IMG/VR virus record: IMGVR_UViG_2534681998_000017
Location: 1 to 7,019 of that record
From: a virus
Taxonomy: Duplodnaviria; Heunggongvirae; Uroviricota; Caudoviricetes
Strand: one strand, 5' to 3'
Length of the DNA stretch: 7,019 nt
Shown: positions 5,016-6,697 of the stretch, in pieces
Layout of the letters: each line of letters starts with the position of its first letter
How positions within the stretch are numbered: position 1 is the first letter of the stretch
Translations under genes and position numbers: made by a program
The notes under the pieces: generated by a model
What the model was told of the DNA's origin: nothing
Seen by the model: the letters and a program-made list of their open reading frames with translations, nothing else
Database searches by the model: none

Positions 5016-6697
5016 TCAATCTTTATCGTAAAAACTGCCACGCCTGGCACGGGCGCGCCGTTCCATTTCTGCCCTGACCATTTCGCCGACCAGTTTCGCC
5101 AGTTCGCGGGGATTCTGCGTAACAACGTTATGCAGATGAACATGAATTTCACCGCCAAATCCGGAGGCAACAGGCTCCCGGTTACGGGAAGTTGCAGGAA
5201 CTGATGCCACTGGCGATCGTATGGCCTCCACCACCGGGCGGGAGCTGGCCGCAACAACAGGGACCAGCGCCGGAGGCAGCGGAGCCGGGACCACGGGTGT
5301 GATATTAATTGCGGGGGCAGGCTTACTGACCTGCGCAATCTTCCGCTCCTGCCACTCCCCACGAACAGCAAGTGCGCGGGGCAGGTTCTTAAAGACAATA
5401 TCGCCGGGGCCAATGCGTTTTTTTGTCTCATCAACCAGCTTACCTGTGTTATCAGCAATTTTGCTGAGTCTGCGTAGCGTGCCGGTATTGCTGTCTGTGA
5501 GAGGTTTGTTGTCTTTGGGTTTATCATCTCCGGTGCCATTGCTATTTCCCGCAGACTTCGGCGGATTGATTTTCGCAATGTCTCCCTGAAACAGAGCAAC
5601 CTTGTCCTGAAGAATGGCCGCACGTTGTGCGTCTTCGATTTTCTTGCGCGCCCTTTCCGCTTCATCCGGAAGCACACCGAGTTTTTCAAGTATCCACGCC
5701 AGCGTATCCAGCAACATTTTTGCAGGCGTCAGAACAAGCTGTAACGCACCACCAAGAACGTTACCGAATACCTCGCCAGCACTGGTACATTTATCCAGCG
5801 TTTCCTTGCTGGACTCCATCGGTGACAGCAGCGATTTAAACCAGTTAAACACCTGGCTGAACCGCTTCCGATTACGTCAAAAACAGGGCCAAACCGTTCA
5901 AAGGTGTCGCGCAACGGGGTCAGCCTTTCCATAATCCCGCTGAACACCCCGGCAAAGAAAGCCCTGATAGGATCCCAGTATTTCCAGATAAGAACGGCAG
6001 CTCCGGCAAGCGCAGCCACGATAAGACCAACCGGACTGAACAACGCCCCAATAACGCCTCCCAGTAAAGAAACGGAACCCGTCACCATTCCCCATAGCGC
6101 AGGTAACACCCTGACGACATTCATTGACCGGGTAAGAATGTCAAAACCAAGACGCAGGGTGGCCAGCTTCCCGTAAAGCACCCCAATAACCAGCGACAAC
6201 GAGCCAATCGTTGCAGTCATTGCCAGCAACGCACCGCCTGCTATCAGTAGCTGGCGCGTCAGTACCGGATGGGCCTGCGCCAGCGAGGTGATTTTTTCAA
6301 GCACCCGCGTGAGCCACTGCGTGACAGAACGCAGCGGACCGTCAACCAGATCACTGATGCGAATACGAAGACCTTCCCATGCGCTGTCGAGATTTTTCAG
6401 GTCCCCATCAAGATTATCAGCCATTACTTTTGCGACGCGATCGGCCTCTCCCCTTGCCCCCTGCAATTCTCTGGTCAGTTTTTGCAGCTCTCCTGAACCA
6501 GCCGCCGCAACAAGCGTCTGCAAACCAACGAACGCCTCTTCTCCGGCGATGTCCTTGAAGAAGGAGACCTGGTCCACCTGTCCGTATTTTTGTGTCGCCT
6601 TATAGAGATCAAGCAGCACATCCTCCATCGGGCGCATTTTGCCTCTGGCGTCAGCAACTGACACCCCCAGCTCTTTCAGTGCATCAGCCGCAGCTTT
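5016..6697 (-). pseudogene. phage tail tape-measure protein gene, P2 gpT-like, frameshifted and 5'-truncated
   Basis: Two overlapping minus-strand ORFs in different frames (5729-6718 and 5016-5852) together read as one tape-measure protein. The upstream part has the ...[31 protein letters not shown]... core and a hydrophobic Gly/Ala-rich helical segment; the downstream part has VFNWFKSLLSPMESSKETLDK..., a Pro-rich stretch and a charged C-terminus. The frame change is confined to 5853-5876. The 5' end is missing: at about 6698 the sequence becomes IS-derived. Confidence 0.75.

What the first reader, a model, noticed from the sequence alone, without database searches (positions are those of the whole stretch)
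5853..5876. Frameshift splits the tape-measure gene within a 24-nt window
The upstream tape-measure frame is reliable through ...RFGPVFDVIGSG and the downstream frame from VFNWFKSLL.... Inserting one base at the AA dinucleotide (plus 5860-5861) would read ...DVIGSGFSQVFNWFK... as one continuous protein. A tape-measure protein sets tail length and is essential, so if the frameshift is real the tail module is non-functional. Programmed frameshifting is known for the upstream chaperone (P2 E/E', lambda G/GT), not within the tape-measure gene itself.
Basis: partly seen in the sequence, partly recalled or inferred. Interest (0 to 1): 0.45.

Follow-up and report, generated by a model that had tools for sequence, protein, structure and literature searches.

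The report
Frameshifted tape-measure pseudogene in decayed prophage
The split in the tail tape-measure gene is a real, inherited one-base loss that typical E. coli O157:H7 strains carry in an already wrecked P2-like prophage, so it is an ordinary, already annotated pseudogene and not a new recoding mechanism.

Summary
On the minus strand the P2-type tape-measure gene (gpT) changes frame inside 5853-5876. Intact relatives read GGA AGC GGG ATC AGC CAG GTG (GSGISQV). The window reads GGA AGC GGT TCA GCC, a net loss of one base: plus-strand 5860-5863 AACC against ATCCC.

The lesion is not an assembly error. The identical 61-nt sequence occurs in 264 complete E. coli genome records, and every sampled one that names a serotype is O157:H7. 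NCBI's PGAP annotation already marks the gene "frameshifted". Another 951 records carry the extra base. So do O55:H7 DEC5B and O157:H7 LSU61, 493/89 and PV15-279, which have one 935-aa ORF, as do phages such as P88. P2 gpT aligns straight across the junction.

Nothing supports programmed frameshifting. The two-frame layout is not conserved. The one in-frame slippery heptamer is expected by chance 17% of the time, and the downstream fold is unremarkable.

The gene is dead twice over in this window. Its first ~372 codons are gone, and the remainder is fused to the interior of an IS1203 copy. The locus matches Sp13, which the literature describes as a defective P2-like prophage. Verdict: real, ordinary, already known.

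The parts
5860..5863 (-). The lesion. Plus-strand AACC where intact relatives have ATCCC (minus strand GGTT versus GGGAT). Net -1 nt plus one substitution, at codons 654/655 of the 935-codon tape-measure gene. It also destroys a GATC site.
   Evidence: Alignment with intact L003 and L005 and with lesion-bearing L001 and L002. Position in the protein.
5853..5876 (-).
   Evidence: Downstream frame is closed by a TGA at 5879-5877 and its listed ORF starts at GTG 5852.
5861..6708 (-). Upstream remnant of gpT in the original frame, corresponding to residues ~373-654 of the intact protein. It contains only the last 55 of 201 positions of the PhageMin_Tail domain.
   Evidence: 280/286 aa identical to the DEC5B protein. 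PF10145 partial hit. 100% nucleotide identity to typical O157 L002.
5729..5860 (-). Out-of-frame read-through after the lesion: 43 missense codons (SARCLTGLNRCC...) ending at TGA 5731-5729.
5016..5858 (-). Downstream remnant of gpT in the shifted frame. The 278 residues from V658 to the stop are identical to the intact protein. S656 and Q657 are read from 5858-5853.
   Evidence: 278/278 aa identical to DEC5B gpT. Frames shown.
5834..5840 (-). T TTA AAT, an X XXY YYZ heptamer that is in frame only in the post-lesion reading frame. A -1 slip here would return ribosomes to the gpT frame. Judged coincidental.
   Evidence: The only such heptamer in the 330-codon upstream ORF. At least one occurs in 17% of shuffles of the overlap region. 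Downstream fold z = -1.03.
6699..6708 (.). 10-bp repeat GGCGGTGATG at which gpT is fused to the interior of IS1203. This is the junction of a 4,140-bp deletion relative to typical O157 Sp13.
   Evidence: The same junction is in an independent read-set assembly, L015 (SRR26901194), 100% identical over window 3671-6773.
6699..7019 (+). Internal fragment of IS1203 (an IS3-family element): the end of orfA and the start of orfB. The left end of the element is missing.
   Evidence: 100% identity to IS1203 copies in L001, L002 and L003, starting about 178 nt into the transposase CDS.
4515..5009 (-). gpU tail gene immediately downstream of gpT; the synteny partner that identifies the module.
   Evidence: PF06995 Phage_P2_GpU, E 1.5e-38. 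Annotated 'phage tail protein' in all relatives.

Best explanation
This is a fixed inactivating frameshift in the tape-measure gene (gpT homologue) of a decaying P2-like, P88/Xuanwuvirus-type prophage. The prophage matches published descriptions of Sp13 of E. coli O157:H7 Sakai (PMC2669165); that identification, and the EDL933 synonym CP-933T, rest on my own knowledge.

A GA>T change at codons 654/655 removed one base. Ribosomes therefore read 43 wrong codons and stop, and the last 280 residues are no longer joined to the rest.

The change arose once, in the lineage leading to typical O157:H7. That was after the split from O55:H7 and from atypical O157 strains (LSU61, 493/89, PV15-279), which keep the intact gene. 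It has been inherited vertically since.

The prophage had probably already lost tail function. The baseplate-hub gene D is truncated next to IS30 in both 493/89 and typical O157. That the lesion was selectively neutral decay is my inference.

In this particular window the gene was then damaged again. A 4.1-kb deletion between 10-bp repeats removed its 5' 40% together with the E/E', tube and sheath genes.

Shown: the lesion, its position, its clade distribution, intact relatives, and the second deletion. Inferred: a single mutational event, neutrality, and the order of decay steps.
For: 1. Position and nature of the lesion: nucleotide and three-frame alignment; codon 654/655.
2. Not an error. 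The exact 61-nt lesion sequence is in 264 complete-genome records, and all 13 sampled rows span 61 nt. The other 951 records match at lower identity, and every sampled one carries one more base in the alignment. A 431-nt query gave the same 431-versus-432 pattern. PGAP marks the gene 'frameshifted' in L001 and L002.
3. Intact relatives. There is a 2808-nt single ORF in O55:H7 DEC5B, O157:H7 LSU61 and 493/89, and in FDAARGOS_1370. PV15-279 is intact at the site. Phages P88, 500465-2, 503458 and others have 935-aa single ORFs. P2 gpT aligns without a break across the junction, 33% identity, E 2e-104.
4. No genome holds either one-step intermediate, which fits a single GA>T event.
5. Other decay in the same module. 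The D gene is truncated at 267 nt next to IS30 in both 493/89 and typical O157. Head, baseplate and fibre genes present in PV15-279 and DEC5B are replaced by an IS3-family remnant in typical O157. The window has the 4,140-bp deletion, confirmed in an independent assembly.
6. [quoted passage not shown]
Against: Nothing found contradicts it.

Minor loose ends:
- The two-part nature of the change (one base lost and the neighbour changed) could be two events rather than one, with the intermediate unsampled.
- I did not see raw reads for the assembly this window came from. That assembly differs by 1-2 single-base deletions from every complete genome in the lom fragment at 1-260, so it may contain some indel errors elsewhere.
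- Serotype labels are missing for some of the 264 records, so 'typical O157:H7 only' rests on the sampled rows.
Confidence: 0.95

Rival explanations
1. Sequencing or assembly error: the missing base is an artefact of this assembly, and the real gene is one ORF.
For: The same window shows 1-2 single-base deletions relative to every complete genome in the lom fragment at 1-260, so the source assembly may not be indel-free.
Against: Window 3351-6708 is base-for-base identical to typical O157 genomes. The exact lesion is in 264 independent complete-genome records and is annotated as a frameshift by PGAP. The change is GA>T, not a homopolymer miscount. Independent read-set assemblies L014-L016 carry the same broken ORF.
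Confidence: 0.01
2. Programmed or leaky -1 ribosomal frameshifting. Ribosomes slip at T TTA AAT (5840-5834), 21 nt past the lesion, and make a near full-length tape measure with nine substituted residues.
For: The heptamer is in the correct frame and is the only one in the upstream ORF. A weak Shine-Dalgarno-like AGGTG sits 9 nt upstream (read from the sequence). Its resemblance to the dnaX stimulator spacing is from memory and was not tested.
Against: The two-frame architecture is absent from 951 of 1215 E. coli records and from all intact phages, so it was not selected. The heptamer pre-exists in intact genes, where it is out of frame. At least one such heptamer arises in 17% of shuffles. 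The downstream RNA fold is not unusual: z = -1.03, and 22 of 200 shuffles fold as well. In this window the gene also lacks its first ~372 codons, so no functional product could result.
Confidence: 0.02
3. The two ORFs are naturally separate proteins in this phage group (a split tape measure).
For: One database 'phage', 520873, is annotated with two tape-measure CDSs.
Against: In 520873 the split is at about codon 382, a different site. The record also carries an IS100 transposase gene next to a shortened (255-nt) sheath CDS, so it looks like another damaged prophage. All other relatives, including isolated phage P88 and P2 itself, have one ORF, and the residues flanking the junction are conserved and contiguous.
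Confidence: 0.005

Closest known systems
Tape-measure pseudogene of prophage Sp13 (CP-933T in EDL933) of typical E. coli O157:H7, as annotated by PGAP ('phage tail tape measure protein; frameshifted')
   Same: Window 3351-6708 is 100% identical to this locus in FDAARGOS_293, including the lesion. Neighbours are the same: gpU, a serine O-acetyltransferase-like gene, and the tail-fibre assembly gene.
   Different: In the window a further 4,140 bp (the gpT 5' part, E/E', tube, sheath, the D remnant and the IS1203 left end) is deleted at a 10-bp repeat. The left side is joined to a lambdoid prophage's lom-stf-tfa by a crossover in the tail-fibre assembly gene.
Intact tape-measure protein of phage P88 and relatives (Xuanwuvirus, Peduoviridae), and of the same prophage in O55:H7 DEC5B (WP_000853409.1)
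   Same: The DEC5B protein is 93.8% identical to that of P88. The window's two remnants are 280/286 and 278/278 aa identical to DEC5B. Both have the E/E'-T-U gene order.
   Different: Those are single 935-aa ORFs. The window's copy has the -1 lesion and lacks residues 1 to ~372.
Phage P2 gpT (NP_046782.1, 815 aa)
   Same: Homologous over residues 4-723, 33% identity, E 2e-104. The junction falls inside the conserved segment ...FDWLGEKLQAAWQWFKNLIAP.... gpU follows directly.
   Different: A different genus, 120 residues shorter, with a divergent C-terminal quarter. It is intact and functional.
Programmed -1 frameshift of tail chaperones (P2 E/E+E', lambda G/GT)
   Same: Same module and the same direction of shift (-1). 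The P2 record marks the E/E' slip site just upstream of T.
   Different: That signal is conserved across phages and lies in the chaperone gene. The split here is inside T, is confined to one bacterial clade, and has an intact ancestor.

Membership tests
P2-type tail tape-measure protein (gpT; Pfam PhageMin_Tail PF10145) | PhageMin_Tail domain present | tested here: met
   The intact relative has PF10145 at E 1.6e-56, residues 228-427. The window's upstream remnant keeps only profile positions 147-201 (E 7.5e-09, 36.2 bits against a cut-off of 33.2) because the 5' part is deleted.
P2-type tail tape-measure protein (gpT; Pfam PhageMin_Tail PF10145) | Sequence homology to P2 gpT along most of its length | tested here: met
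   BLASTP of DEC5B gpT against P2 gpT: 243/732 identical, E 2e-104, continuous across the junction.
P2-type tail tape-measure protein (gpT; Pfam PhageMin_Tail PF10145) | Gene order E/E' - T - U - D | tested here: met
   gpU (PF06995) follows directly at 4515-5009. E/E', tube and sheath precede T in L002, L005, L006 and L007, but they are deleted from the window itself.
P2-type tail tape-measure protein (gpT; Pfam PhageMin_Tail PF10145) | One uninterrupted ORF able to encode a full-length protein | tested here: not met
   A frameshift at codon 654/655 and loss of codons 1 to ~372. This is a pseudogene of the family, not a functional member.
Programmed -1 ribosomal frameshift site | Two-frame architecture conserved among homologues | tested here: not met
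   951 of 1215 E. coli records and all intact phage relatives have a single frame.
Programmed -1 ribosomal frameshift site | Slippery X XXY YYZ heptamer in frame within the overlap | tested here: inconclusive
   T TTA AAT is present at 5840-5834, but at least one such motif arises in 17% of shuffles, and the motif pre-exists out of frame in intact genes.
Programmed -1 ribosomal frameshift site | Stimulatory RNA structure 5-9 nt downstream | tested here: not met
   Fold of 5833-5750: -25.5 kcal/mol, z = -1.03, 22 of 200 shuffles fold as well.
Programmed -1 ribosomal frameshift site | Trans-frame protein product observed | not testable with these tools
   Needs a reporter assay or proteomics.
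Lineage-fixed pseudogene in a defective prophage (Sp13-type) | Intact allele in sister lineages and the identical lesion throughout one clade | tested here: met
   Intact in DEC5B, LSU61, 493/89, PV15-279 and F3113. Identical lesion in 264 records, and every sampled row that names a serotype is O157:H7.
Lineage-fixed pseudogene in a defective prophage (Sp13-type) | Independent inactivating lesions in the same functional module | tested here: met
   D truncated beside IS30, head/baseplate/fibre genes replaced by an IS3-family remnant, and IS1203 insertions in T in strains 1613 and PV15-279. The window has the 4,140-bp deletion.

The most novel reading that the evidence does not exclude
In typical O157:H7 strains that still have the full 5' part of gpT, a low level of -1 slippage at the fortuitous T TTA AAT heptamer 21 nt past the lesion (with AGGTG 9 nt upstream) could yield a near full-length tape measure. 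Residues 655-663 (ISQVFNWFK) would be replaced by SARCLTGLN, making the pseudogene leaky rather than null.
Probability: 0.03. Interest if true: 0.25.

Novelty: already known. Interest (0 to 1): 0.06.

Why it matters
It matters little beyond bookkeeping. The lesion confirms that the P2-like prophage of typical O157:H7 cannot build its own tail. That agrees with published work showing this prophage lacks most morphogenetic genes and must rely on other prophages for packaging (PMC2669165).

The GA>T change is a clean, single-origin marker. It separates typical O157:H7 from O55:H7 and from atypical O157 strains (LSU61, 493/89, PV15-279), and it adds one dated step to the stepwise decay of this prophage.

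For annotation, the two ORFs should be merged and flagged as one pseudogene rather than reported as two proteins.

Tried and rejected
1. Assembly error. Rejected: the identical lesion is in 264 complete genomes.

2. Programmed -1 frameshift. I searched the overlap for slippery heptamers and found one, with a 17% chance expectation. I folded the downstream 84 nt and got z = -1.03. I checked conservation and the architecture is absent. Rejected.

3. One-step intermediates of the lesion (insertion-only GAACCC, or deletion-only GATCC on the plus strand). No genome has either.

4. Naturally split tape measure. The only split relative, 'phage' 520873, is split at about codon 382 and also carries an IS100 transposase gene. 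Rejected.

5. Finding the window's source.
- No complete E. coli genome covers at least 80% of the window.
- An exact search for the T::IS junction in species-representative genomes found nothing.
- Exact-protein look-ups of the 329-aa ORF, with V or M as the start, found nothing.
- The 302-aa ATG-start version found four places. One of them, L015, reproduces the junction.

6. Plus-strand ORFs overlapping the site (5614-5934 and 5904-6176) have no Pfam match and are treated as antisense shadows.

Full report
**What is in the window.**
ORF listing and Pfam scans give the following layout.
- 1-188: the 3' end of a lom-type outer-membrane gene.
- 243-3164 (+): a 973-aa lambdoid side tail-fibre gene.
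- 3164-3742 (+): a tail-fibre assembly gene.
- 3786-4391 (-): an AT-rich hexapeptide acetyltransferase gene. GC is 0.35-0.38 here against 0.45-0.61 elsewhere in the window.
- 4515-5009 (-): a P2 gpU gene, PF06995.
- 5016-6718 (-): a tape-measure gene in two frames.
- 6699-7019 (+): part of an IS3-family element.

**The observation.**
On the minus strand the upstream frame (5729-6718) reads ...RFGPVFDVIGSG, then SARCLTGLNRCC... for 43 codons to a TGA. The downstream frame (5016-5852) reads VFNWFKSLL... and is open back to 5876, just after a TGA at 5879-5877.

Compared with the intact 935-aa protein of E. coli O55:H7 DEC5B, the upstream part is 280/286 identical. Four of the six differences are the first four codons, at the IS junction. 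The downstream part is 278/278 identical.

**Exact lesion.**
I aligned the window with two lesion-bearing O157 genomes (L001, L002) and two intact ones (L003 PV15-279, L005 DEC5B).
- Intact: GGA AGC GGG ATC AGC CAG GTG, which is G S G I S Q V.
- Window: GGA AGC GGT TCA GCC AGG TG.

The change is GA>T, a net loss of one base. On the plus strand, 5860-5863 AACC replaces ATCCC. It falls at codons 654/655 of 935.

No complete genome carries either one-step intermediate. The change therefore looks like one event, or two events with no surviving intermediate.

**Real or artefact?**
- A 431-nt query around the site matched 1,373 complete-genome records. Sampled hits at 99% identity or more span 431 nt in the record, and all sampled hits below 98% span 432 nt.
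- A 61-nt query centred on the lesion matched exactly in 264 records. All 13 sampled rows span 61 nt, and every one that names a serotype is O157:H7.
- The other 951 records matched at lower identity, and every sampled one carries one more base in the alignment.
- PGAP annotates the gene as 'phage tail tape measure protein; frameshifted' in strains 1613 and FDAARGOS_293.
- Independent read-set assemblies also carry the broken ORF.

The lesion is a real, inherited allele.

**Are the two ORFs naturally separate?**
No.
- The gene is a single 2808-nt ORF in O55:H7 DEC5B, O157:H7 LSU61, O157 493/89 and FDAARGOS_1370.
- PV15-279 is intact at the site.
- Phages P88, 500465-2, 503458, PhiR44_2, Citrobacter phage Shae_phiSM and others encode single 935-aa proteins 92-97% identical to the DEC5B protein. 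Those whose records I opened are Xuanwuvirus, family Peduoviridae.
- P2 gpT aligns continuously over residues 4-723 (33% identity, E 2e-104). The junction lies inside a conserved block.
- One database 'phage', 520873, has a split tape measure. The split is near codon 382, and the record also carries an IS100 transposase gene next to a shortened sheath CDS. It is an unrelated case of damage.

**Programmed frameshifting?**
A one-base loss needs a -1 shift to be repaired. The only X XXY YYZ heptamer in the whole 330-codon upstream ORF is T TTA AAT at 5840-5834, inside the out-of-frame stretch. A slip there would give a protein with nine substituted residues.

Four points argue against it.
- At least one such heptamer arises in 17% of shuffles of the overlap region.
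- The motif already exists, out of frame, in intact genes.
- The 84 nt downstream fold no better than shuffles: z = -1.03, with 22 of 200 shuffles folding as well.
- The two-frame architecture is not conserved.

I therefore reject programmed recoding and keep it only as a low-probability leaky reading.

**Context: a prophage in advanced decay.**
The locus matches published descriptions of prophage Sp13 of O157:H7 Sakai, known as CP-933T in EDL933. The identification with Sp13 is my inference from that description, and the EDL933 name is from my own knowledge. Asadulghani et al. [quoted passage not shown] In their Table 1, the morphogenesis columns for Sp13 show functions absent and one scored defective.

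Comparison of loci shows a stepwise series.
- O55:H7 DEC5B, LSU61 and 493/89 keep baseplate, fibre, U, T, E, tube and sheath genes, with T intact.
- 493/89 and typical O157 share a D gene cut to 267 nt beside IS30.
- Typical O157 adds the T frameshift and an in-frame 3-nt deletion at codon 235/236. It has also replaced the genes left of the tail-fibre assembly gene (tfa) with an IS3-family remnant.
- Individual strains add IS1203 insertions in T, namely strains 1613 and PV15-279.

That the frameshift arose in an already defective tail module and was neutral is an inference from this series.

**This window is damaged further.**
- Window 3351-6708 is base-for-base identical to typical O157 (L002).
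- At 6699-6708 the T sequence runs, through a 10-bp repeat GGCGGTGATG, into the interior of IS1203, about 178 nt into the transposase CDS.
- Relative to L002 this is a 4,140-bp deletion. It removes T codons 1 to ~372, E/E', tube, sheath, the D remnant and the IS left end.
- An independent assembly (Logan SRR26901194, L015) is 100% identical over window 3671-6773, across the junction, so the deletion is real.
- On the other side, window 179-3435 is identical to a lambdoid prophage of EDL933 (lom-stf-tfa). The crossover into the Sp13 tfa lies in 3351-3435.

So T in this window is inactivated at least twice, and the tail module could not function even without the frameshift.

**Other strand.**
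Plus-strand ORFs across the site (5614-5934 and 5904-6176) have no Pfam match and are taken as antisense shadows.

**Verdict.**
The feature is a lineage-fixed frameshift pseudogene in a known defective prophage. It is already flagged by standard annotation, it is not novel, and its interest is low.

Noticed in passing
window 6699-7019 (junction 6699-6708): The tape-measure gene is fused to the interior of IS1203 through a 10-bp repeat GGCGGTGATG. Relative to typical O157:H7 this is a 4,140-bp deletion that removes T codons 1 to ~372, E/E', tube, sheath, the D remnant and the IS left end. No complete E. coli genome in the collection has this junction, but Logan contig SRR26901194_430 (L015) does.
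   Followed up: yes
window 1-3435, crossover 3351-3435: The left half of the window belongs to a different, lambdoid prophage (lom 3' end, 973-aa Stf side fibre, 5' part of tfa). It is identical over 179-3435 to a locus in EDL933 (L010). It is joined to the P2-like prophage by a crossover inside the homologous tail-fibre assembly gene. This is either a real inter-prophage recombination (inversion or deletion) or a repeat-induced misjoin in the source assembly. No complete genome shows the join.
   Followed up: partly
window 64 and 154 (within 1-260): The lom fragment lacks two single bases relative to the EDL933 copy. No complete genome matches 1-260 exactly; the best hit is 99.6% with one extra base. 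This is either a frameshifted lom pseudogene or indel errors near the end of the source contig.
   Followed up: partly
L002 9617-12420 (outside the window), gpT codon 235/236: Typical O157:H7 gpT also carries an in-frame 3-nt deletion relative to O55:H7 DEC5B. This explains why the annotated pseudogene is 2804 nt rather than 2807 nt.
   Followed up: yes
window 3786-4391 (-): An AT-rich (GC ~0.35) hexapeptide-repeat acetyltransferase gene, annotated 'serine O-acetyltransferase' in relatives, sits between tfa and gpU. Phage P88 has a DNA invertase and alternative fibre genes at this position. It looks like a cargo ('moron') gene and is intact in all strains examined.
   Followed up: no
L008 1501-4307 (Escherichia phage 520873, NC_049344.1): A RefSeq 'phage' of the same genus has its tape-measure gene split at a different place (about codon 382). 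It also has an IS100 transposase gene next to a shortened sheath CDS. It is probably a defective prophage deposited as a phage genome.
   Followed up: partly
L003 7488-8390; L005 4485-5387: The less decayed versions of this prophage (PV15-279, DEC5B, LSU61, 493/89) carry a macro-domain protein gene between the tail-fibre gene and tfa. That is an unusual position for such a gene. It is absent from the window.
   Followed up: no
window 5859-5863 (-): The intact allele contains a Dam site (GATC) exactly at the lesion (GGGATCAG). The GA>T change destroys it. This may be a coincidence. I did not explore the mutational mechanism.
   Followed up: no
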